Part shown: positions 39,623 through 63,994 of the stretch, in pieces
How the letters are laid out: every line of letters begins with the position of its first letter
Position numbering within the stretch: position 1 is the first letter of the stretch
Assembly (NCBI RefSeq): GCF_030013595.1
Contig: NZ_CP122768.1
Source of the DNA: Escherichia coli
GTDB taxonomy: Bacteria; Pseudomonadota; Gammaproteobacteria; Enterobacterales; Enterobacteriaceae
Length of the DNA: 64,000 nt
Strand: one strand, 5' to 3'
Made by a program: the position numbers and the translations under genes
Notes under the pieces: model-generated
What the model was told of the DNA's origin: nothing
Databases searched by the model: none
What the model saw: the letters and a program-made list of their open reading frames with translations, nothing else

Positions 39623-40195
39623 TTAGCCAATACCAAACGCTCGGATTGAACCCAAATCCTCCAGATTGTTCAGATCCTCTTTCATTTCACGCTGACGGCG
39701 ATAAATCTCGTCATTGCGATCGACCTGAGCCTGCGCCATTGCTGCCGCCAGCTCCTGAAGCTGTGCCATTGTCAGAGTGACAAGGTTATTTGCTGCATCC
39801 CCCCATCCCAGCGTTGACCGCGTACCTGCAACCTTTGTCGCCATTGCCACGGGCGCAATACGACTTATTGAGTCTGCACCACCATTCCAGGTACGACCGT
39901 TCCATTCGAACGTGAACGGCTGCGCCTCCTGTTCTGTGCGCCATGCTTCGATTTCCTGGCGTTTGGCGGCTTTTGCTGCTTCCAGCATTTCAGGTGATAC
40001 AGTGAACGGGGCTATATCCCCCCATTTACCGCTTTGCAGCTCCTGCCAAATTTGCTGGCCTGTTGTTGCTGTGTCTTCTGGTGTAGATGTGTAGGGGATG
40101 AAATCTTTCATCCCCTCAAATAACACTTCACAGTCAATTGCGCCATTCTCCAGCCTGCGGGCGTTTTTGATTTCTTTTATTTTTATCCCATTCAT
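39623..40195 (-). CDS. putative tail fibre chaperone/accessory protein
   Basis: 190 aa directly downstream of a tail-fibre gene. Confidence 0.45.
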   Translation of the reverse strand: MNGIKIKEIKNARRLENGAIDCEVLFEGMKDFIPYTSTPEDTATTGQQIWQELQSGKWGDIAPFTVSPEMLEAAKAAKRQEIEAWRTEQEAQPFTFEWNGRTWNGGADSISRIAPVAMATKVAGTRSTLGWGDAANNLVTLTMAQLQELAAAMAQAQVDRNDEIYRRQREMKEDLNNLEDLGSIRAFGIG

Positions 40196-41598
40196 CAGGA
40201 AACTCTCACAAACAGACCGAAAATAAAATCGCTGGTCGCCTGAGTGCTGTTGCCCAGAGAGACATAGGCTCCCGAAAAGTGGCGTCCAGTATCCAGCACA
40301 TACCGTGGTGCTCCGTCATTCGACACTATAACAGCGCAGGGAATCAGAGTGCTGCCGCTTACGCTGTCACCACGTTTTATCGTATATTCATCAGTATTTG
40401 CTGCACGGTACGCGGCCTGAGTTAAGCCGCCAACTGCCACATCTCTGAATGGTACGTCGTACCACGGGCCAGCTATGTTATACAGCCATCTCGCACCATC
40501 TATCGCGGTTAAGTTTTGACTCAGGCATGTCCAGCGTATGTTCGTACTGTCCGCCCTGACCTCACAACAATACACGTCCTGATTAACCCCGTTAAAAATG
40601 ACAAACTTATCGCGCCTGTTTTGATTTTCATGCGTTGCTGTTTCCAGCATTTTTATCTCTACCTCTCCGCTAAAAACAACCCCTTCTATAATGTCCTTGG
40701 AATATGGGCCACCATATTGAACGACAAGATAGCGCCCCGGGGGAGTGGTCTGTACCCAAGAAGCAAATGTTGCTGATGTCGCGTATTTATCAAACTCCTT
40801 ACGTTGTGTGGGATACGCGCCATAACCGAAAGCTCCCGGAAGTGCCACACAACCTTCAGTTCGGTTGTAAATGTCTGTTTGTACATCCATCGTTGCAGCA
40901 CTTTTCAACCCCAGATTGTCTCGGGATTCCTGCTGAGCATCTTCCCCCTCTGCTGCAATTTCTGACAGGTGATTCGCCGTTTTCAGCGTTGCAGATAACG
41001 CAACATCAATATCATCTCTGGCCTGCTCTGCATCGGATGCGGCCTGTTTGGCGGCTTCAGCATCCTGCCTGACTTCTTCGGCGGTATCCTCAACCTGCGA
41101 GGCCAGCTGTTCAACGCGCTGCGTGTTTTCCTCCACAGCATTTGTATTCTGCTGAACATTATCTGCCAGCGTTTCAACCTGCTCTTTTATCAGAGCTGCC
41201 GCTTCAGCATGTTGCCCTGCCTGTCGTTCGCTTTCCGCTGCCGCTTCCGCGCTCTGCTGCGCCTGCACCACCAGTTCTTCGAACCGCTTAACAACATCTG
41301 GCTTCAGGTCGCCTTCATCGAGAGCGGTCAGGAAGTCGTTCAGCGTGCCGTGCTTTGAATCGTCGTAAACCGAAATATCACCGACACAATATTCTCTTTC
41401 AATACATGACCGAAGATAAACGTCATATCTTCCGGTCTGAGCCTCAAATGCATATTCTCCTGCCGGCCCCGTCACCACTGTTGCCACCGTTCTCATGACC
41501 ACTGCGGATGTATTCTGTCGGGCTTTCAGAATAATATGGTATCCGGACATGGGGAGTCCCGCACCATCCGTCAGCACACCCGAAATTAATACAGACAT
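40195..41598 (-). CDS. side tail fibre protein
   Basis: 467 aa; conserved prophage tail-fibre N-terminus, long coiled-coil, divergent C-terminal domain. Confidence 0.75.
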   Translation of the reverse strand: MSVLISGVLTDGAGLPMSGYHIILKARQNTSAVVMRTVATVVTGPAGEYAFEAQTGRYDVYLRSCIEREYCVGDISVYDDSKHGTLNDFLTALDEGDLKPDVVKRFEELVVQAQQSAEAAAESERQAGQHAEAAALIKEQVETLADNVQQNTNAVEENTQRVEQLASQVEDTAEEVRQDAEAAKQAASDAEQARDDIDVALSATLKTANHLSEIAAEGEDAQQESRDNLGLKSAATMDVQTDIYNRTEGCVALPGAFGYGAYPTQRKEFDKYATSATFASWVQTTPPGRYLVVQYGGPYSKDIIEGVVFSGEVEIKMLETATHENQNRRDKFVIFNGVNQDVYCCEVRADSTNIRWTCLSQNLTAIDGARWLYNIAGPWYDVPFRDVAVGGLTQAAYRAANTDEYTIKRGDSVSGSTLIPCAVIVSNDGAPRYVLDTGRHFSGAYVSLGNSTQATSDFIFGLFVRVS

Positions 41599-41622: not shown

Positions 41623-42711
41623 TTAACCAAAATAATTGACGCCTTTTTTCTTGCCACTGGCTTTCCCCTTTGCAGAAATATCCGTGGTCAGTGACAGATT
41701 CAGCGTAAATCCCTGTCCCGGTACCAGTGAAAACTCCACAGACTCAGCCTGCCAGTGATGGTCCTCACGCACACCAAATCCCTGCGTGACAAAACGCATC
41801 TCCGCCCCTGCTTTCAGCAGTTCCGGCCTGCAGGGCAACGTTATCGTCATCTGGCGTCCGACTTTCTGCACACGTTTAACCTTCGACTCTGCACAGTGTT
41901 TTGCGGTGCCCTGGTCAGGCTGGGTAAACGGATGCCGCTTATCTGTTGACTCCACGTCAACTTTAACTTCACGTGTGCGTCCGTCACGGGCATCAAAATA
42001 CCGGACCCCAACTTTCCCGCTCTTTTTATCCCCCTTCGCACCACCCGCAGCGCCCTGTCGCTCACCTTCACGATAATCCCAGTCTGATACCATACCCGGT
42101 GTAATGGTTATCTCAGGCGCATTTCTGCCCCCCGTACTCTGTGATGCCCCGTATTCCAGAAATAACCAGTAGCCATTGGTCGGTTTACTGGTGGCGCCGT
42201 ACATACCTGCAATGCGGGACAAGAGGGCAGCATCAGATTCTGATGACTGCATCACCCACGGGATATGAATATCAGCAAGCACCGATGAGACGCGCGCCAC
42301 CAGATTATTTTCAGTGGCGATGGTGTTCACCAGGTCGCCCAGTGTGATATCGCTGAAAGCCCGGGTTTTCAGTGCGGTCACGTCTGCGCCATGTTTTGAC
42401 GCATTCATGGGGGCTGCGGTGGCATAAATGGTGAGCCGGCGGGGAGGACCACCGCTTGCCACCTGACAGACGGTAAAACTGCCTTTATTGACCAGATTTC
42501 CGTTGAACCCCAGTCCCAGCGTTAGCACCGCGCCTTTCGGTGGTAACGCCAGCGTCTCGCTGAACAGCGTTATCATCAGTTCATCGGACCGCTTTGTGGC
42601 TGCACCATTATCGGTATATCGCAGTTCAGCCAGCCCCCGTTTCAGGGCCTTCGTGATATCCTGGCCTTCCGCTGTCAGGCTGAAATCCGGCTGATATTCA
42701 TTCAGTCCCAT
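41623..42711 (-). CDS. P2 gpD-like tail protein
   Basis: 362 aa; synteny after gpU/gpX. Confidence 0.85.
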   Translation of the reverse strand: MGLNEYQPDFSLTAEGQDITKALKRGLAELRYTDNGAATKRSDELMITLFSETLALPPKGAVLTLGLGFNGNLVNKGSFTVCQVASGGPPRRLTIYATAAPMNASKHGADVTALKTRAFSDITLGDLVNTIATENNLVARVSSVLADIHIPWVMQSSESDAALLSRIAGMYGATSKPTNGYWLFLEYGASQSTGGRNAPEITITPGMVSDWDYREGERQGAAGGAKGDKKSGKVGVRYFDARDGRTREVKVDVESTDKRHPFTQPDQGTAKHCAESKVKRVQKVGRQMTITLPCRPELLKAGAEMRFVTQGFGVREDHHWQAESVEFSLVPGQGFTLNLSLTTDISAKGKASGKKKGVNYFG

Positions 42712-42920
42712 AACTGAAACGTCTCCTTCACTTCCGGTTCATATACCCAGTCCGGCAACACGATTTCCACTCCCGACGGATAGACCGGACCAAGGTCAGC
42801 CAGCCCGGGATTGGCTTCCAGTACCGCCGCCAGTGACTGGTTAAGCCCGGCACTGCCATAGTGTCTCTGACAGATGTCATCCAGCATATCGCCGTCAGTG
42901 GTCCGCCAGTTTTTCGCCAT
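42702..42920 (-). CDS. P2 gpX-like tail protein
   Basis: 72 aa; synteny. Confidence 0.8.
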   Translation of the reverse strand: MAKNWRTTDGDMLDDICQRHYGSAGLNQSLAAVLEANPGLADLGPVYPSGVEIVLPDWVYEPEVKETFQLWD

Positions 42921-43389
42921 AGTATTTCAGCTCCAGTGTGAACGTTTTGTTCTTTGGCGCCCCGCCGGGAAGAAAGGACGTGGTGTTATCTGAATAGGCG
43001 GTTGCCACGAAATACCCCATCACATCGCCTGTACTTGAGACCAGTAACTGCGGGGCCGGATTGTCATCCACCATCTGAACCAGCGTATCAAGGGCATCCA
43101 TTCCCACACCGTCACGAAATCCCGCATGCACCATGCCTTCAAGGGTTATTGTTCTGGCCCCCTTACCGGTATACTGCAGCAGGTCGTTTTTTCCGATAAG
43201 CTGCTGTTCATCCCATCGCCATTCCATAGTGCGCTTCATGGCGTTATAGGCTGCCGTATCAATACTGAATTCAAACTCACCAAACGACAGCATGACGCGG
43301 GAGGCGACATCCGTTAATGAACCCACCGCATCCCATGCTTCACGTTCAAGCCGGTTTACGCCCCAGCCCAGCAAATCCACCATGTTCAC
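42895..43389 (-). CDS. P2 gpU-like tail protein
   Basis: 164 aa; synteny after tape measure. Confidence 0.8.
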   Translation of the reverse strand: MNMVDLLGWGVNRLEREAWDAVGSLTDVASRVMLSFGEFEFSIDTAAYNAMKRTMEWRWDEQQLIGKNDLLQYTGKGARTITLEGMVHAGFRDGVGMDALDTLVQMVDDNPAPQLLVSSTGDVMGYFVATAYSDNTTSFLPGGAPKNKTFTLELKYYGEKLADH

Positions 43390-45044
43390 CCCCAGAATGC
43401 ATCACCATCGGTCATGCGGGAACGCTGACCAAAATTAATATCTCCCAGATTTTTCGTTACCCTGTCTGCCAGTTGTCCGGCATCCTCGCCGGGCTTCTGG
43501 GTGATGTTAAATTCCGCCCGTATCTGATACGTGGGTTTTACTTCCACCCGGCTGATACTGCCGGGGGTATGCTGAAGCGCTGAAAGGCGGTCAGCCTCCC
43601 CCGATGCGGGTTCCTGACGAGTTTTCTGTAGTTGATCGCGGGCAGCGCGAACACGCTCCCTCGCCCCATCAAAATCAGGTTCTTCCTTCGGTCCCAGCAA
43701 AGGATCGAGAAATGCATCAAACTTTTTATCGTCATGGTTCCAGGGGAGATAACCGCGGGTGTCTTTATAAGCCTGTACAACCTGTTTCGTCAGCTCCGGA
43801 TTTTTCCTGAGCAGTTCATCAAACCATTCACCCTGACCGTTTTTCTGCGCCACCGCTCTCGCCAGCTCAGGCGAACCCATTTTTGCCAGATATTCCAGCA
43901 CCTCTCGCCGGTCCTCCCGCGAATCATCCGCCAGCCCCCACTCAATGGCTTTCTGCGTTATTCCTGCAAGAACTTTTCCGAATTTCCACATCCACTCGGA
44001 CAAATCGATCAACGCCGGCAGGGCATCATCAAGGATAAATGCCTGAATCTTCTCAAGGCCACCCTCCTTAAACCAAGCCGCAAGATCATCCGTCACCTGT
44101 TGGATACGTGGCGCAAGCTCATTACCCAGTTGTCCGCTGATTTCATCAATGGAAGAACTCAAAACATTACGGAGATTTGACAGCGCCACATGCCCCTGAA
44201 CTGCGCCATCAGCCCCTTCTTTTGTCACCAGGTTATAGCGTTTCTGCTCACTGATAAGCTCCCGGAAGGTTTTTCCTGACAGACGCATCCAGGTCAGAAT
44301 TTTATTGGCCTCCCCCCCAAACAGCGCATCTGCCATCCCCGCCGCCTGCTGCTCATTCTCCACCTGCAGTAAGCGATCAAACAAAAATTCGACCTGTTCC
44401 TGGTTGTTTTTTCCGGCCATTACGCCCGCTTTCAGCCCCAGTTTACCGAATACCTCCTGAATGGCTCCTTTGTCCGTGGCACCATTATCATCGTCAAAAA
44501 CCTTGTTCCGGTATTCCTCAAACAGATCACCAATGTTTTCGCCGTTTAACCCCATCTGACGGCCCAGTGAATCCCACGCCGCATAGGTTTCGTAATCCAC
44601 CCCATAACTCCGGGCTATCCCTGCCCGCTCTGCCGTTTCCGAATTCCGGTTCAGTACCGCGCTGGCACCTGCTGCCAGCGTCAGCCCGGAACCAACAGAG
44701 AGCCCGAGTCCGGTTTTAAGAAATGTCCCTGCCCGTCCTTTCCAGCGTTCCAGGCGCTCTGCCCGTTCAAGCTGGCGATTAAATCGCTCCTGCTCCGCTG
44801 CAGCATCATTGATTTTCCGTTTCAGCTTTTCATACTGCTTTCGCAGATCGGTAATATCCTGCCCTGCCAGTACGCCAGCCTGAATTTTTCGCTTCAGTAC
44901 ATCCTGCTGACGCGTCAGGCGTGCCACTTCCTGTGTCGCACCAGCCAGACCTCGCTTCAGCCCCTCTGTCGATTTTTTCCACGACGGGTCAATAGTGCCG
45001 CCGATCCGGATATTCGCTCTGAGGTTATCGCCCACCGTTGCCAT
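43386..45044 (-). CDS. tail tape measure protein (gpT-like)
   Basis: 552 aa, helical; between gpE/E' and gpU. Confidence 0.9.
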   Translation of the reverse strand: MATVGDNLRANIRIGGTIDPSWKKSTEGLKRGLAGATQEVARLTRQQDVLKRKIQAGVLAGQDITDLRKQYEKLKRKINDAAAEQERFNRQLERAERLERWKGRAGTFLKTGLGLSVGSGLTLAAGASAVLNRNSETAERAGIARSYGVDYETYAAWDSLGRQMGLNGENIGDLFEEYRNKVFDDDNGATDKGAIQEVFGKLGLKAGVMAGKNNQEQVEFLFDRLLQVENEQQAAGMADALFGGEANKILTWMRLSGKTFRELISEQKRYNLVTKEGADGAVQGHVALSNLRNVLSSSIDEISGQLGNELAPRIQQVTDDLAAWFKEGGLEKIQAFILDDALPALIDLSEWMWKFGKVLAGITQKAIEWGLADDSREDRREVLEYLAKMGSPELARAVAQKNGQGEWFDELLRKNPELTKQVVQAYKDTRGYLPWNHDDKKFDAFLDPLLGPKEEPDFDGARERVRAARDQLQKTRQEPASGEADRLSALQHTPGSISRVEVKPTYQIRAEFNITQKPGEDAGQLADRVTKNLGDINFGQRSRMTDGDAFWG

Positions 45045-45161
45045 AACACTGCTTCCTCTCTTCCGCCTCTGCCAGCATTATTGCCACAAAATCCTCATAC
45101 GGCAGTGCCATCACATCTCCGGGTGACCACCCGAACCATACTCCGGCACGCCGTATCGCCA

Positions 45162-45470
45162 TCAGGATGTTTTCTTCTTCCGCCGGACCGGCGGCAGCAA
45201 AAAAACATTAAACTGCCGCTCCAGGGCCAGGTAATCACACGCTTCCATGTTCATCATGTCTGCCGCGTCCATCCCGCACAGACCGGCAATCATATCCAGA
45301 TCAGCCTCTGCTTCCGGTTTGGTACTCCGGCGATGCAACAGACGATCGCGGACGGTGGGCGCACGCATGGTGACGTGCGTGATCGTCTGTCCTGATGCGG
45401 TGACATACGGCACGGATAACACAATTTCCACGCAGCTGGCAGGAACACTGTTTTTTTCCGACATAAGCAT
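45162..45470 (-). CDS. tail assembly chaperone gpE (E' by -1 frameshift ending near 45027)
   Basis: 102 aa; slippery site near 3' end; -1 frame extends about 58 codons to a stop overlapping tape-measure start. Confidence 0.8.
   Translation of the reverse strand: MLMSEKNSVPASCVEIVLSVPYVTASGQTITHVTMRAPTVRDRLLHRRSTKPEAEADLDMIAGLCGMDAADMMNMEACDYLALERQFNVFLLPPVRRKKKTS
45199..45205 (-). other. programmed -1 frameshift site (TTTTTTG on minus strand)
   Basis: Run of 7 A on + strand inside gpE; same heptamer as the classical P2 E/E' site. Confidence 0.7.
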
Positions 45471-45522
45471 CTCCTAAAAAAAGAAAAGGCGGCCTGAGCC
45501 GCCTGAATGGCAGATCCCCGGA

Positions 45523-46041
45523 TTAAACCCGGATGATTTTTTTCAGATCCGACAGAACATTAACGCCGTTAATACGACGTACAAATTCCTCCGGAATAAT
45601 GCAGATGGTTTCCAGGCCATCGACAGCCTGACGGTAATAACTCAGTGACATTTCCACTGTCACCGAAGCCTCTGCCTGTGATGTTGCCGGACGTGCATCC
45701 GGCGTGATACTGGTGATCATCCCCTGCAGGGTTTCCACCTGTCCGCTGGTCGCATTTCCCACCCGATAAGCCTGGCGCACAACAATCTCCGGCGAATAAA
45801 GCCCGGCCTGCAATCCCAGCAGCGTAAGCATGGCAACATCATAACCATAAATCTTAAACGAACAGGTCAGCGCTTCCATGCCGTCATCCACTGCCACCGG
45901 TGCATCCATTGCGCCGGTTTTGATATCCACTGTCGTGATATTAATGGCAGGCGGCGTGTATTCATGCGCACCCTGAAGGCGGATCCCGCCAGGAAGAAAT
46001 AACGCCCATGCACGCAACAGTTTTTTTTCACCCGTAATCAT
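45523..46041 (-). CDS. tail tube protein (FII-like)
   Basis: 172 aa; follows sheath. Confidence 0.9.
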   Translation of the reverse strand: MITGEKKLLRAWALFLPGGIRLQGAHEYTPPAINITTVDIKTGAMDAPVAVDDGMEALTCSFKIYGYDVAMLTLLGLQAGLYSPEIVVRQAYRVGNATSGQVETLQGMITSITPDARPATSQAEASVTVEMSLSYYRQAVDGLETICIIPEEFVRRINGVNVLSDLKKIIRV

Positions 46042-47513
46042 ACCGTCAGTTCCTCCAGCGCCAGTTTATTGTTAATCATTGCCCGCAGTGTCAGGCGCTC
46101 CAGTGGTGACTTCGGCCCAAAGTCATAATCGATATACAACTGCCCTGCCGCCAGGGTTTCTGCTGTATTCAGTTCATCATTCAGCCAGGCGCTGCCACCG
46201 TGGATCGCACCCAGATTTTTAAGCTGACGCATATAGGCATTAATGCTGCCAAGAATGTCGTCTGCCACATCCCGATCAAGCGGGCGATCGACATAAGGCA
46301 ACATGGCCTCCTGGATACTGTCCTCAATCACATCTGCAGTGCGACGTACCGGTTCAAAGCGCCACTGACTGTGGGATGTGCACAGACGGTTACCCCAGTG
46401 TTTAAAACCGTCATGGCGAATAATGGTGGAGATATTTTCCATGTTCAGCAGGTTTGCCGTGCAGTTCTGCTCCCCGAGAATAAACGTATCCACCTGCTCC
46501 AGACCGGTGATATTCATCACGTCCTGGTTTGATTTGGACCACCACCACCCTTTTTCATAATCAATACGGGCACGCAGCCCGGCAGCACGAGCCGAATATG
46601 GACGAAATACCGTTTGCCCGCTGTCATCCGTCACTGACACGCGCGGACGCAGCAGCTCCACACGTCCGCCAAATGACGCGCGCCGCTGAACCACATCCTG
46701 CGGCGTTGCCATTGAGGGCGAGTCAATATAGGCCACAGCCCGCAACTTCGCGGCATACGTTTCCAGCGCCTTTGCCACGCCATCATCCTCACTGTACCCC
46801 GTGGCAATGAGGATGCGCGGTTGATAGCCTGTCACGCCCTTACTTTCTGTCAGCGCCTCCATGGCCTGAATCACCGCCGCACGCTGTTCGGCCTCTTTCG
46901 CCTTTGCTTTACTTTCTGCGCGCACCACAATCACCAGCGCACCAGTCTGGTCAAAAATATCACGCAGGGCCGGGTATAATGTTCCGGCTGTGCCCAGTTT
47001 CCCCGCCTGAGTAATGGCCCCTGCCACCACCACCGGTGTGTTGACCGGGAACGCCTCATCTTCCCCGCCGGATAACGTCAGGCTGAACGGCGACACCACT
47101 TTATTTTCAGCGCCTCCTGCATTCAGGGTGCTGGCAGCCGCCGTCACAGGCGAATCCCCCAGCGCATTCACCACTTCAGTCACACAATCCACCGTGGCGT
47201 TAACCTGGCTGTGTTCGTCCGTCCCCAGTGTTATCGTCAGGGTCGTACCTTTCAGCGAGGCCACTGTCTGCGCGTTTTGTTCCGTGGCAGCCACGGCAAC
47301 AACCGAAATCTTATTACCGACCCGACCTTCCTGTTTCGCCGTGAAATCCAGCGCCGTTCCCAGCAGCCAGGAACCGGCTGTGCCGGAAGCGCACACACCA
47401 CCAGAGGCGTCCGGCGCTGTCCCCACCAGGCCAATCACTGCCGTGGAGATGGTTTGCACGGCAACCGTGCCTGTCGTCAGTTCAATGGTTTCAACACCAT
47501 GTAATCCGGACAT
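46038..47513 (-). CDS. tail sheath protein (FI-like)
   Basis: 491 aa. Confidence 0.9.
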   Translation of the reverse strand: MSGLHGVETIELTTGTVAVQTISTAVIGLVGTAPDASGGVCASGTAGSWLLGTALDFTAKQEGRVGNKISVVAVAATEQNAQTVASLKGTTLTITLGTDEHSQVNATVDCVTEVVNALGDSPVTAAASTLNAGGAENKVVSPFSLTLSGGEDEAFPVNTPVVVAGAITQAGKLGTAGTLYPALRDIFDQTGALVIVVRAESKAKAKEAEQRAAVIQAMEALTESKGVTGYQPRILIATGYSEDDGVAKALETYAAKLRAVAYIDSPSMATPQDVVQRRASFGGRVELLRPRVSVTDDSGQTVFRPYSARAAGLRARIDYEKGWWWSKSNQDVMNITGLEQVDTFILGEQNCTANLLNMENISTIIRHDGFKHWGNRLCTSHSQWRFEPVRRTADVIEDSIQEAMLPYVDRPLDRDVADDILGSINAYMRQLKNLGAIHGGSAWLNDELNTAETLAAGQLYIDYDFGPKSPLERLTLRAMINNKLALEELTV

Positions 47514-47567: not shown

Positions 47568-48113
47568 TCAGGTATTTTGTGGCTGCTCAGGCCAGCTAAT
47601 ATTGTTGTAAGTGGTCTTATCCGTAATAGCGCTGAAATCCATCGCCTGCAGCGATTTCGCGTAAATGCGGTACGCTTTGAGCTTTTCCCTGTCTTCGTCA
47701 CTGATTAATCCCAGCAGCAGGTCTTTTTCCCATTCGCTGGTCATGATGCTGACCTGTTTTAACAGTGCATCACGCTCATCTTCCGCTTTAAGTTTGTAGT
47801 CAAAAACAAATTCATCATTGCGGTAGAACCAGTATCCCGACGCCTCAATGCGACGATTAGCGGTAATATCCGGCAACTCAATCACACTTTTATTTTCCGG
47901 GCAGATTGAGGTGATGTCTTTTCCGACCCAGACCACTTCGCCAGTTTCAACATAAATAACTTTCAGAGTGTCTGGCTGAAATTTTTCCTGGGCTTCGTGC
48001 CATTCCTGACCATCATCGGAGAACAGCCACAATAAAAATTTATGCTGTCGTGCCAGCTGGTATTGCTCAATTGTTTTAGGGTTTTGTGCCGTAAGATTTT
48101 TTAAGTGCATCAT
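47568..48113 (-). CDS. tail fibre assembly protein (gpG-like)
   Basis: 181 aa downstream of tail fibre. Confidence 0.7.
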   Translation of the reverse strand: MMHLKNLTAQNPKTIEQYQLARQHKFLLWLFSDDGQEWHEAQEKFQPDTLKVIYVETGEVVWVGKDITSICPENKSVIELPDITANRRIEASGYWFYRNDEFVFDYKLKAEDERDALLKQVSIMTSEWEKDLLLGLISDEDREKLKAYRIYAKSLQAMDFSAITDKTTYNNISWPEQPQNT

Positions 48114-48115
48114 GA

Positions 48116-49465
48116 TTACAAACTCGCTACATTTCGCCAGACACCATTAATCAGAACCTGCACCGGGCGTGCATTGGCCCAGTCCACACTTTCACCGCCA
48201 TCAACACCACTCAGTAAATGACCTGATGGCGCATTTCCTCCGCGTCCAATACCAATGGCACCTCCCAGACGCACATCCTGCACACCACCTGTTCTGGTCT
48301 GGTAACGGGCATCAAAATTTCCGTAGTTTGATGGAACCATCTGCCCGTTTACGGCAAACGTTATGCTGTTATCCGTATTCCTCTGACTGTAAAAATGCCA
48401 GCCAGAATCATCACCAAGCTCTGCAACAACAGGCCTTGAGGAATTTCCCCATAGACTAAATCTTGCACTCTTCGTGGAAGAACTGTCACACGACAGCGTG
48501 AACTTTCTTAAATTGCCGGTCGAGAGATTTTCTAATGCCAGCACACCGTTTTTTGTAAAACGAAAGGCGTTGTGTCCCTCTGCAAACACATTAATAACAC
48601 CGCGTCCGCCCCACTTAAAACCGGTATTGCTATCACAGAGCGTGAGTGATTTTTCACCCAGATTGTTCTCATTACCGATGCCAATCCTGTCACCAATAAC
48701 CACATCGCCCTGGCGCAGGTTAATGGAAATGGGCCGCAGTGGGCCAATATCACCATTTTCTCCATGGTCTTCCTGCGTGGGAATGAAGTGCAGGTAATCT
48801 TCTGAACGACGAAAAATCAGGCCAAAAGCCTCGTTGAAAATCCTCAGCGCATTAACACCACGGATTTTCAGTTCCCCGGTCATGGTGTCACCATCACGCT
48901 GAACGGCATTTTTTGCCTTGTCCACCGTGGGTTTTAATCCGAGGTTTTCAACAGCCTCATCCTTGTCTTCCACATCCGAAAGATTCTTTTTTCGTTGCAG
49001 ATAGCGTCTGTCTCCGATTTCCTGAGTAATAATGGCCCTGTCCGGATCAACTTCCAGCACCACGTTTTGTGCGTGCGTCAACCCAAGAACCAGCGTCAGA
49101 ATAACTTCCTTGATAACGGAGTCCGTCTGGTCTGGTAAAAAGGTGTCGGGATAACGTCCGTACGCGATAAGCGTACCTCTGTCGCTGATCATCCCCAGTT
49201 CACGAAGGGTTTTACCGGGGTATGATTTACAGTCAATCACAATATCCCCGCTGATGAAGCCCTCCTCCACCGCACCGTCGGAAAAGGGTTCCTGCCCGAA
49301 TTCGCCGTACAACGATGTCATTGCTGCCATTTCATCCGGCGTGGATGGCAATGCACGCCCGCCCCCGTCACCAAGCAGAACATGCCGGACGGTCACGGTT
49401 TGCCCGTTCTGATATGCTGCTTCAATTTCTGCAGCGCCGGACGTTGTCAGAATCAGTCCATTCAT
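48116..49465 (-). CDS. tail fibre protein (gpH-like)
   Basis: 449 aa following baseplate I. Confidence 0.8.
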   Translation of the reverse strand: MNGLILTTSGAAEIEAAYQNGQTVTVRHVLLGDGGGRALPSTPDEMAAMTSLYGEFGQEPFSDGAVEEGFISGDIVIDCKSYPGKTLRELGMISDRGTLIAYGRYPDTFLPDQTDSVIKEVILTLVLGLTHAQNVVLEVDPDRAIITQEIGDRRYLQRKKNLSDVEDKDEAVENLGLKPTVDKAKNAVQRDGDTMTGELKIRGVNALRIFNEAFGLIFRRSEDYLHFIPTQEDHGENGDIGPLRPISINLRQGDVVIGDRIGIGNENNLGEKSLTLCDSNTGFKWGGRGVINVFAEGHNAFRFTKNGVLALENLSTGNLRKFTLSCDSSSTKSARFSLWGNSSRPVVAELGDDSGWHFYSQRNTDNSITFAVNGQMVPSNYGNFDARYQTRTGGVQDVRLGGAIGIGRGGNAPSGHLLSGVDGGESVDWANARPVQVLINGVWRNVASL

Positions 49466-63601: not shown

Positions 63602-63994
63602 TTACTTAACATTACCGCCTCCTCCGCCTCGCAGGCGGGAGAACCGTCCTGACACCAGCGATGCGATATCCTGCTGGTGGATGAACGACAGAATCTTCAC
63701 CGACACCACAGACACCAGCACTGCACACAGCGCGTCGACAGATTTACTGTGAAGCCCCAGTTTTTCGACCAGATAAGACGCCATCACATCCGCCCCCAGT
63801 ACGCCGATAATAAACGACACCAGAAAATGCGCCGCCACCCGCCAGACAGAAAGCGCCTGCGGCATCGTTGCCACAAACAACGCCCCCGCGAACGCACCAA
63901 ACACAATCCCGAAATCCGTTCCGGTGAACAGCCCGAATACCGTCGCCCCTCCGAGCGCAGCCGCCGTGCCGGAACCGGATAAGGGTTCAGACAT
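63602..63994 (-). CDS. putative holin-like multi-TM membrane protein
   Basis: 130 aa, Gly/Ala-rich hydrophobic helices; heads the lysis cassette. Confidence 0.45.
   Translation of the reverse strand: MSEPLSGSGTAAALGGATVFGLFTGTDFGIVFGAFAGALFVATMPQALSVWRVAAHFLVSFIIGVLGADVMASYLVEKLGLHSKSVDALCAVLVSVVSVKILSFIHQQDIASLVSGRFSRLRGGGGGNVK

What the first reader, a model, noticed from the sequence alone, without database searches (positions are those of the whole stretch)
45027..45470. P2-type E/E' frameshift site conserved in prophage B
The slippery heptamer TTTTTTG is present near the 3' end of gpE and the -1 frame runs to a stop overlapping the tape-measure start. This supports the P2-like tail assignment and suggests the tail module is intact.
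Basis: partly seen in the sequence, partly recalled or inferred. Interest (0 to 1): 0.25.

Follow-up and report, generated by a model that had tools for sequence, protein, structure and literature searches.

The report
Tail-chaperone frameshift site, P2 type
This is an ordinary but real, unannotated example of the programmed -1 ribosomal frameshift that tailed phages use to make two versions of a tail-assembly chaperone. It sits between the tail tube and tape-measure genes of an E. coli prophage.

Summary
On the minus strand, gene E (45464/45470 to 45162) lies between the tail tube gene and the tape-measure gene. It carries T_TTT_TTG at 45204-45198 in the correct X_XXY_YYZ phase, 13 codons before its stop. 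The -1 frame opens just upstream of the heptamer, runs 57 codons, and stops at 45027-45025, 20 nt inside the tape-measure gene.

The heptamer and the open -1 frame are not improbable by chance. The case rests on comparison:
- P2 has the same heptamer, phase and layout.
- All 15 enterobacterial relatives checked (54-100% identical E protein) keep T_TTT_TTG or T_TTT_TTA, even where the preceding codon changes amino acid.
- The extension is always 57 codons in the ten E. coli copies.
- Variable sites switch from third positions of frame 0 to third positions of frame -1 downstream of the E stop.
- The ATG that RefSeq uses for a separate 45-aa "hypothetical protein" is missing in 6 of 10 E. coli copies.

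E belongs to the same Pfam family as P2 gpE (PF10109). E' is only a remote relative of P2 E' (PF06528).

The prophage itself is not P2-like. It combines a lambda-type head with a P2-type contractile tail.

Verdict: a new member of a well-known kind, of low interest.

The parts
45523..46041 (-). Tail tube gene (P2 FII type, 172 aa), immediately upstream of E
   Evidence: Pfam PF04985 Phage_tube, E = 3e-22. PGAP names it 'phage major tail tube protein'.
45162..45470 (-). Gene E, the tail assembly chaperone in frame 0. The longest ORF starts at 45470. The probable true start is the ATG at 45464 (100 aa). The stop is TGA at 45164-45162.
   Evidence: Pfam PF10109 Phage_TAC_7, E = 1.3e-13, the same family that P2 gpE hits. 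phrog_166 'tail protein', E = 7.5e-23. Relatives begin at MSE.., which supports 45464 as the start. Variable sites in the E body fall 9/4/47 by codon position.
45198..45204 (-). Slippery heptamer T_TTT_TTG (the last six of a T7 run at 45205-45199, plus G at 45198). The frame-0 codons are GTT TTT TTG, at E codons 88-89 counted from ATG 45464.
   Evidence: Sequence and phase. Identical to the annotated P2 site. Kept in all 10 E. coli copies and in five of the six more distant relatives checked; the sixth has T_TTT_TTA. The preceding codon varies (GTT, GAT, AAT, GCT) but always ends in T.
45025..45198 (-). E' segment: the -1 frame read after the slip. It is 57 codons (AAAGPAEEENILMAIRRAGVWFGWSPGDVMALPYEDFVAIMLAEAEERKQCYGNGGR) plus the stop TAA at 45027-45025. 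Positions 45162-45198 code in both frames.
   Evidence: Translation. Always 57 codons in 10 E. coli copies, while the frame-0 tail varies (E is 96-102 aa). Downstream of the E stop, variable sites fall 6/6/20 by codon position in the -1 frame, and synonymous:non-synonymous codon differences are 213:207 in frame -1 versus 66:411 and 43:428 in the other frames. Remote similarity to P2 E'.
43386..45044 (-). Tape-measure gene (552 aa). Its ATG at 45044 lies 20 nt inside the end of E'.
   Evidence: Position. phrog_3654, E = 5e-215, plus several weaker hits to 'tail length tape measure protein' PHROGs down to E = 2.4e-11. No Pfam or NCBIfam hit. Followed by gpU, X and D homologues.
45180..45194 (-). 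Small GC hairpin (CCGCCG-GUC-CGGCGG) starting 3 nt after the heptamer. It is listed only as a candidate and is not supported as a stimulator.
   Evidence: Present in the MFE fold. The region folds no better than shuffles (z = 0.25), and the hairpin is lost or weakened in the Salmonella and metagenome relatives.
45219..45222 (-). GGAG, lying within the Leu-Glu codons CTG GAG, 14 nt upstream of the heptamer. It is a possible Shine-Dalgarno-like stimulator but is untested.
   Evidence: CTGGAG is present in all family members examined. Its conservation cannot be separated from conservation of the encoded Leu-Glu.

Best explanation
Gene E encodes a tail assembly chaperone. Most ribosomes read it in frame 0 and terminate at 45164-45162, giving E (100 aa).

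A minority slip back one base when tRNA-Phe (on UUU) and tRNA-Leu (on UUG) occupy the P and A sites on U_UUU_UUG. Both tRNAs re-pair with UUU UUU, and the ribosome continues with GCU in the -1 frame. The result is E+E' (146 aa, junction ...QFNVFL|AAAGPAEE...), which terminates just inside the tape-measure gene.

By analogy with lambda G/GT and P2 E/E+E', the shared E part would bind the tape-measure protein and the E' part would recruit the tube protein. A fixed E to E+E' ratio would then be set by the slip frequency.

What is shown here: the sequence anatomy, its conservation, and coding selection in both frames. What is inferred: the slip itself, its frequency, and the chaperone roles.
For: - The heptamer is in the correct phase, the -1 frame opens immediately before it, and that frame ends overlapping the next gene.
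- P2, where the frameshift is annotated from experiment, has the same heptamer, phase and gene order. PMC3931495 and PMC5009743 both cite Christie et al. 2002 for this.
- E and P2 gpE both match PF10109.
- Ten E. coli copies with 86-100% DNA identity all keep the heptamer and a 57-codon extension.
- Relatives at 54-83% protein identity from Salmonella, Citrobacter, Trabulsiella and metagenomes keep T_TTT_TTG or T_TTT_TTA. The preceding codon changes amino acid (V, D, N, A) but always ends in T.
- The codon-position pattern of variable sites switches from frame 0 to frame -1 after the E stop.
- Six of 10 E. coli copies have ACA or ACG where this copy has the ATG that PGAP uses for a separate E' ORF, so E' cannot in general be started independently.
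- Vibrio phage Valp1 keeps the same layout with a different canonical heptamer, G_GGT_TTT.
Against: - There is no direct evidence of the fusion protein.
- No conserved stimulatory RNA structure was found.
- The closest isolated phages, Chris1 and yong2, carry T_TTT_ATG at the homologous site. This is not a canonical tandem-slip heptamer, yet they keep E' in frame -1, so the heptamer is not strictly required in the wider family.
- E' fails the Pfam threshold for the P2 E' family.
- The heptamer and a 57-codon open -1 frame are each unremarkable by chance.
Confidence: 0.88

Rival explanations
1. Transcriptional slippage. RNA polymerase stutters on the T7 run and adds one U to a fraction of mRNAs, so ordinary translation of those mRNAs yields the same E+E' protein.
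For: The run is 7 T here, longer than P2's 6. Inserting one base gives the same frame change and nearly the same product.
Against: Several relatives manage with 6 T in the same phase. Valp1 uses G_GGT_TTT, which has no long homopolymer. From general knowledge, efficient slippage by E. coli RNA polymerase usually needs runs of about 9 or more; this was not tested here. The conserved phase fits tRNA re-pairing but is not discriminating, because it also follows from conservation of the Phe-Leu codons. The T conserved at the end of the preceding codon likewise lengthens the run and so fits either mechanism.
Confidence: 0.06
2. E' is a separate small gene started at ATG 45162, as RefSeq annotates it (45-aa hypothetical protein WP_156841731.1). 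No recoding is involved.
For: An ATG exists at 45162 in the -1 frame, and PGAP calls that ORF in this and some other strains.
Against: The ATG is replaced by ACA or ACG in 6 of 10 E. coli copies, and PGAP then leaves a gap of about 118 nt. No Shine-Dalgarno sequence is evident in the bases just before that ATG (reading). The -1 frame protein sequence is conserved upstream of that ATG, back to the heptamer (AAAGxAE). The P2 precedent also argues against it.
Confidence: 0.03
3. The pattern is an accident: a frameshift mutation, a homopolymer sequencing error in a decaying prophage, or a chance heptamer.
For: Homopolymer runs are error-prone. The heptamer count in the window is at chance level. 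Long -1 runs after in-phase heptamers are not rare in raw ORFs.
Against: The same arrangement recurs in independent genomes of several genera and in P2. Both frames show coding-type substitution patterns.
Confidence: 0.02

Closest known systems
Bacteriophage P2 E / E+E' (FETUD operon; Christie et al. 2002, J Bacteriol 184:6522, cited in PMC3931495 and PMC5009743)
   Same: It has the identical slippery heptamer T_TTT_TTG in the same phase, near the 3' end of a roughly 90-100 aa gene between tube gene FII and tape-measure gene T. The -1 extension is 57 codons here and 56 in P2 (142-aa fusion, heptamer ending at codon 85), and its stop overlaps the start of T. Both E proteins are in PF10109. The surrounding genes are FI-type sheath, FII-type tube, and gpU and gpD homologues.
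   Different: Pairwise protein similarity to P2 E+E' is not significant (BLASTP E = 4, 24% identity). E' misses the PF06528 threshold. The run is T7 rather than T6. The overlap with T is 20 nt rather than 8 nt. Gene X lies between U and D. The sheath is 491 aa. The head module is lambda-type rather than P2-type.
Lambda G / GT and the conserved tail-chaperone frameshift of long-tailed dsDNA phages (Levin 1993; Xu, Hendrix and Duda 2004, 2013, 2014; reviewed in PMC5009743)
   Same: There are two overlapping reading frames directly upstream of the tape-measure gene, joined by a low-frequency -1 slip. The presumed role is to fix the ratio of a short and a long chaperone.
   Different: The heptamer differs (lambda uses G_GGA_AAG, from my own knowledge). 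There is no detectable sequence similarity. This is a contractile-tail context rather than a siphovirus context.
Stenotrophomonas phage Smp131 orf27/orf27.1 (PMC3931495)
   Same: It is a P2-type tail gene pair with a predicted T7G slippery run, the same run as here.
   Different: Smp131 is a P2-like phage throughout. Its related prophages use T7C.
Citrobacter phage Chris1 and Hafnia phage yong2 (closest isolated phages)
   Same: The gene order is the same (sheath, tube, E, T, U, X, D). E is 37-42% identical by tblastn, and E' is in the -1 frame, ending near or inside the start of T.
   Different: Their site reads GTT TTT ATG (T_TTT_ATG), which is not a canonical tandem-slip heptamer.

Membership tests
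P2-type E/E+E' tail chaperone pair with -1 programmed frameshift | The gene pair lies directly between the tail tube gene (FII) and the tape-measure gene (T) | tested here: met
   The tube gene is PF04985. The downstream 552-aa protein matches tape-measure PHROGs and is followed by gpU, X and D homologues.
P2-type E/E+E' tail chaperone pair with -1 programmed frameshift | The E protein is homologous to P2 gpE | tested here: met
   PF10109 Phage_TAC_7: E = 1.3e-13 here and 1.4e-12 for P2 gpE. Direct BLASTP is not significant, so homology holds at family level only.
P2-type E/E+E' tail chaperone pair with -1 programmed frameshift | An in-phase slippery heptamer T_TTT_TTG lies near the 3' end of E | tested here: met
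   compared with the P2 site. Conserved in relatives.
P2-type E/E+E' tail chaperone pair with -1 programmed frameshift | A -1 frame extension of about 50-57 codons, with no conserved start of its own, ends at or inside the start of T | tested here: met
   57 codons with a 20-nt overlap with T. The ATG is absent in 6 of 10 E. coli copies. Coding-type substitution pattern in frame -1.
P2-type E/E+E' tail chaperone pair with -1 programmed frameshift | The E' domain belongs to Pfam PF06528 (Phage_P2_GpE) | tested here: inconclusive
   This sequence gives no hit even at E up to 10. Four of 12 family members give sub-threshold hits, the best at E = 0.0088. Profile-profile comparison gives 85% probability over 30 columns around the shared F-x-W-x-P-S/G-E motif.
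P2-type E/E+E' tail chaperone pair with -1 programmed frameshift | The E+E' fusion protein is actually made and is needed for tail assembly | not testable with these tools
   This requires a reporter assay, mass spectrometry or genetics.
Peduoviridae / P2-like phage (the whole prophage) | P2-type head and packaging genes (Q, P, O, N, M, L) | tested here: not met
   The head module is lambda-type: Nu1 (PF07471), gpA terminase, lambda-family portal (PF05136), S49 protease, gpD decoration protein (PF02924), gpE capsid (PF03864), FI and head-tail attachment protein. Only the tail module is P2-type.

The most novel reading that the evidence does not exclude
This lineage of phages with a lambda-type head and a P2-type tail carries an E' domain that forms its own subfamily outside Pfam PF06528. 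The recoding site within the lineage is also unexpectedly plastic. It reads T_TTT_TTG or T_TTT_TTA in the enterobacterial prophages, non-canonical T_TTT_ATG in the viable phages Chris1 and yong2, and G_GGT_TTT in a Vibrio phage. In KP12 and PhiKM the E' homologue lies in the +1 frame. If the non-canonical members really make the fusion protein, some use a mechanism other than tandem -1 slippage, such as P-site-only slippage or +1 shifting. The T7 run here could also add a transcriptional-slippage component.
Probability: 0.12. Interest if true: 0.3.

Novelty: new member of a known kind. Interest (0 to 1): 0.12.

Why it matters
The value is mainly for annotation. RefSeq treats E' in this prophage family either as a separate 45-aa hypothetical protein or as an unannotated gap of about 118 nt. 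It should be one CDS with ribosomal slippage.

The site also supports the view that the tail module of prophage B is under purifying selection and so is probably functional. It adds a divergent E' subfamily to the P2-type chaperone frameshift, with small natural variations in the slip site that could be used to study sequence requirements. It does not change what is known about the mechanism.

Tried and rejected
- DNA similarity of 44900-45600 to 50,697 phage records found no match, so closeness to P2 cannot be argued at the DNA level.
- Pairwise BLASTP against P2 E+E' was not significant.
- Pfam on E' alone, NCBIfam and sequences of solved structures gave nothing useful.
- The downstream stimulatory structure was rejected. 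The GC hairpin at 45180-45194 exists, but the region folds no better than shuffles and the hairpin is not conserved in relatives or in P2.
- The upstream GGAG cannot be separated from conservation of the Leu-Glu codons.
- A simple statistical argument from the heptamer count or from heptamer plus long -1 ORF was rejected as insufficient.
- A second in-phase heptamer in E, A_AAA_AAC at 45456 with a 49-codon -1 run, was rejected. It lies at codon 5 and is not conserved (L003 reads MPEINS).
- The original P2 paper (Christie 2002) is not held in the library. It is cited through PMC3931495 and PMC5009743.
- A database search with the fused protein found only 13 relatives, none annotated as a fusion.

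Full report
**What is there**

All relevant genes are on the minus strand. Reading downward in coordinates, the order is as follows (for Pfam, for the tape-measure PHROGs):

| Gene | Window coordinates | Size and evidence |
|---|---|---|
| Sheath | 46038-47513 | 491 aa; PF04984, PF17482 |
| Tube | 45523-46041 | 172 aa; PF04985, E = 3e-22 |
| E | 45162-45470 | ~100 aa |
| Tape measure | 43386-45044 | 552 aa; phrog_3654 E = 5e-215, weaker tape-measure PHROGs |
| gpU homologue | 42895-43389 | PF06995 |
| Tail protein X | 42702-42920 | PF05489 |
| gpD homologue | 41623-42711 | weak PF05954 |

The E ORF can start at 45470. The ATG at 45464 has proper spacing from AGGAG, is the start used by PGAP, and is the only start shared by relatives. 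It gives a 100-aa protein that hits PF10109, Phage_TAC_7, at E = 1.3e-13.

**The site**

The minus strand reads ...CAG TTT AAT GTT TTT TTG CTG CCG CCG... in the E frame. T_TTT_TTG (45204-45198) is therefore a canonical X_XXY_YYZ heptamer, 13 codons before the E stop.

The -1 frame carries a TAA just before the run. It is then open for 57 codons to the TAA at 45027-45025. The tape-measure ATG is at 45044, so E' ends 20 nt inside that gene. A tandem slip would give a 146-aa E+E' with the junction ...QFNVFL|AAAGPAEEENILMAIRR....

**Is it more than chance?**

Not by the raw pattern. TTTTTTG occurs 20 times in the window against 17.4 expected. Among 100 in-phase canonical heptamers in raw ORFs of at least 90 aa, 12 are followed by at least 57 open -1 codons. 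The argument has to come from context and comparison.

**Comparison with P2**

In the P2 record the frameshift is annotated (E, E+E' and a "site of -1 translational frameshift"). The sequence there is GGT TTT TTG TCG, the same heptamer in the same phase. P2 E is 91 aa and E+E' is 142 aa, and E+E' overlaps the start of T by 8 nt.

P2 gpE hits the same Pfam family as the protein here (PF10109, E = 1.4e-12). Direct BLASTP between the two fusion proteins is not significant, although the one collinear alignment places the FL of the slip site in register.

P2 E' hits PF06528 strongly, but the E' here does not. I built one alignment of E' segments from this family and another from P2-type GpE proteins. 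Compared profile to profile, they match at 85% probability over 30 columns around a shared F-x-W-x-P-S/G-E motif. Four of the 12 family members give sub-threshold PF06528 hits. E' is best described as a remote relative of P2 E'.

**Comparison within the family**

The segment occurs in about 75 of 5,426 complete E. coli genomes. I examined nine further copies spanning 86-98% DNA identity, plus the window. Three results stand out:

- **Heptamer and extension length.** All ten have the heptamer and an extension of exactly 57 codons. The frame-0 tail varies; one copy stops four codons early.
- **Substitution pattern.** Upstream of the heptamer, variable sites fall 9/4/47 on codon positions 1/2/3 of frame 0. 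Downstream of the E stop they fall 6/6/20 on positions 1/2/3 of frame -1. There, synonymous to non-synonymous codon differences are 213:207 in frame -1, against 66:411 and 43:428 in the other two frames. The stretch after the E stop is therefore coding, in frame -1.
- **No independent start.** The ATG at 45162, which PGAP uses to call a separate 45-aa hypothetical protein, is ACA or ACG in six of the ten copies. In those genomes PGAP leaves the region unannotated.

Six more distant relatives, with E 54-83% identical, come from Salmonella, Citrobacter, Trabulsiella and metagenome assemblies.

- All six keep the -1 extension and the conserved core of E' (IRRAGAWFGW.P.E.MALP).
- Five have T_TTT_TTG and one has T_TTT_TTA.
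- The codon before the run encodes V, D, N or A but always ends in T. That is expected if the first T of the heptamer is itself under selection.

**Wider relatives**

Vibrio phage Valp1 has the same layout with G_GGT_TTT.

The closest isolated phages, Citrobacter phage Chris1 and Hafnia phage yong2, keep E' in frame -1. At the homologous place they read GTT TTT ATG, which is not a canonical tandem-slip site.

In Klebsiella phage KP12 and Escherichia phage PhiKM, the E' homologue is in the +1 frame of E. I did not follow up these two observations.

**Stimulators**

A 6-bp GC hairpin begins 3 nt after the heptamer. The region folds no better than shuffles, and the hairpin is not kept in the Salmonella and metagenome relatives or in P2. 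A GGAG lies 14 nt upstream in all family members but is part of conserved Leu-Glu codons. No stimulator is established.

**Mechanism**

The best explanation is the known one. A minority of ribosomes slip -1 on U_UUU_UUG, producing E+E' alongside E.

For lambda, the review PMC5009743 describes how the G portion binds the tape-measure protein and the T portion binds the major tail protein. It notes that neither product is in the virion, and that P2-type sites shift two to three times more often than lambda's. PMC3931495 describes the P2 T6G site and a T7G site in phage Smp131, the same run as here.

Three alternatives are much less likely, for the reasons given under the rival explanations:
- transcriptional slippage on the T7 run;
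- independent initiation of E';
- accident or sequencing error.

**The prophage as a whole**

Upstream of the sheath gene are P2-type baseplate and fibre genes: gpW/gp25, J, I, a tail-collar fibre and a fibre assembly protein.

Beyond these lies a lambda-type head module: Nu1, gpA, lambda-family portal, S49 protease, gpD, gpE, FI and a head-tail attachment protein.

The tail is therefore P2-type, but the phage is not P2-like. All tail ORFs are full length and match the sizes in Chris1 and yong2. This supports an intact tail module better than the slip site does.

**Verdict**

This is a real, conserved and currently unannotated instance of a well-known recoding event, in a divergent subfamily. 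It is a new member of a known kind, of low interest.

Noticed in passing
window 13586-14004 (minus strand), prophage A: The other prophage (Mu-type tail: sheath 14360-15856, tube 14004-14360) has its own chaperone pair. An 89-aa ORF (13735-14004) carries an in-phase T_TTT_TTC at 13753-13747. The -1 frame runs to a stop at 13586-13588, overlapping the tape-measure ATG at 13593. The extension contains a P2 E'-like motif (YWRINPFELLNMP).
   Followed up: partly
window 11139-13593 (minus strand), prophage A: The tape-measure gene of prophage A appears broken into three ORFs: 12826-13593 (PF10145), 11761-12780 (same frame, so an in-frame stop) and 11139-11669 (a different frame). This suggests a pseudogene and a defective tail in prophage A.
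   Followed up: partly
window about 49193; L001 (E. coli UMNF18 record, 1364146 to 1402320): In strain UMNF18 the same prophage is split. Its baseplate genes lie about 38 kb from its sheath gene, with a Mu-like prophage (head, sheath, tube, tape measure, baseplate) between them. The junction falls inside the tail fibre region. The window itself is contiguous there and matches strain ETEC6335 at 100% in both segments tested.
   Followed up: partly
L012 2743-2925 (Citrobacter phage Chris1); L015 2749-2940 (Hafnia phage yong2): The closest isolated phages keep E' in the -1 frame. At the homologous place they read GTT TTT ATG (T_TTT_ATG, only five T), which is not a canonical tandem-slip heptamer. 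Neither record annotates a frameshift.
   Followed up: no
L013 about 2650-2900 (Klebsiella phage KP12); L014 about 2650-2890 (Escherichia phage PhiKM): The E' homologue (WFRFQPGEIDALDTDDLEMWLEQAEE) lies in the +1 frame relative to the E homologue. It would need a +1 or -2 shift, unless the records contain errors.
   Followed up: no
window 45025-45162; RefSeq records: PGAP either calls E' as a separate 45-aa hypothetical protein (WP_156841731.1) or leaves a gap of about 118 nt between E and the tape-measure gene. It names the tape-measure protein 'hypothetical protein' in most genomes. No ribosomal slippage is annotated.
   Followed up: yes
window 39623-41598 (minus strand): After gene D, at the end of the prophage next to the host potB gene, there is a second fibre-type pair: a prophage tail fibre N-terminal domain protein (467 aa) and a DUF4376 protein (190 aa). 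This is additional to the P2 H/G-type fibre pair at 47568-49465.
   Followed up: no
window 39623-64000: Prophage B is a mosaic of lambda-type packaging and head genes (Nu1, A, portal, S49 protease, D, E, FI, head-tail attachment) joined to a P2-type contractile tail. The window ends in the lysis genes (holin 63602-63994), so its integrase and regulatory region could not be inspected.
   Followed up: partly
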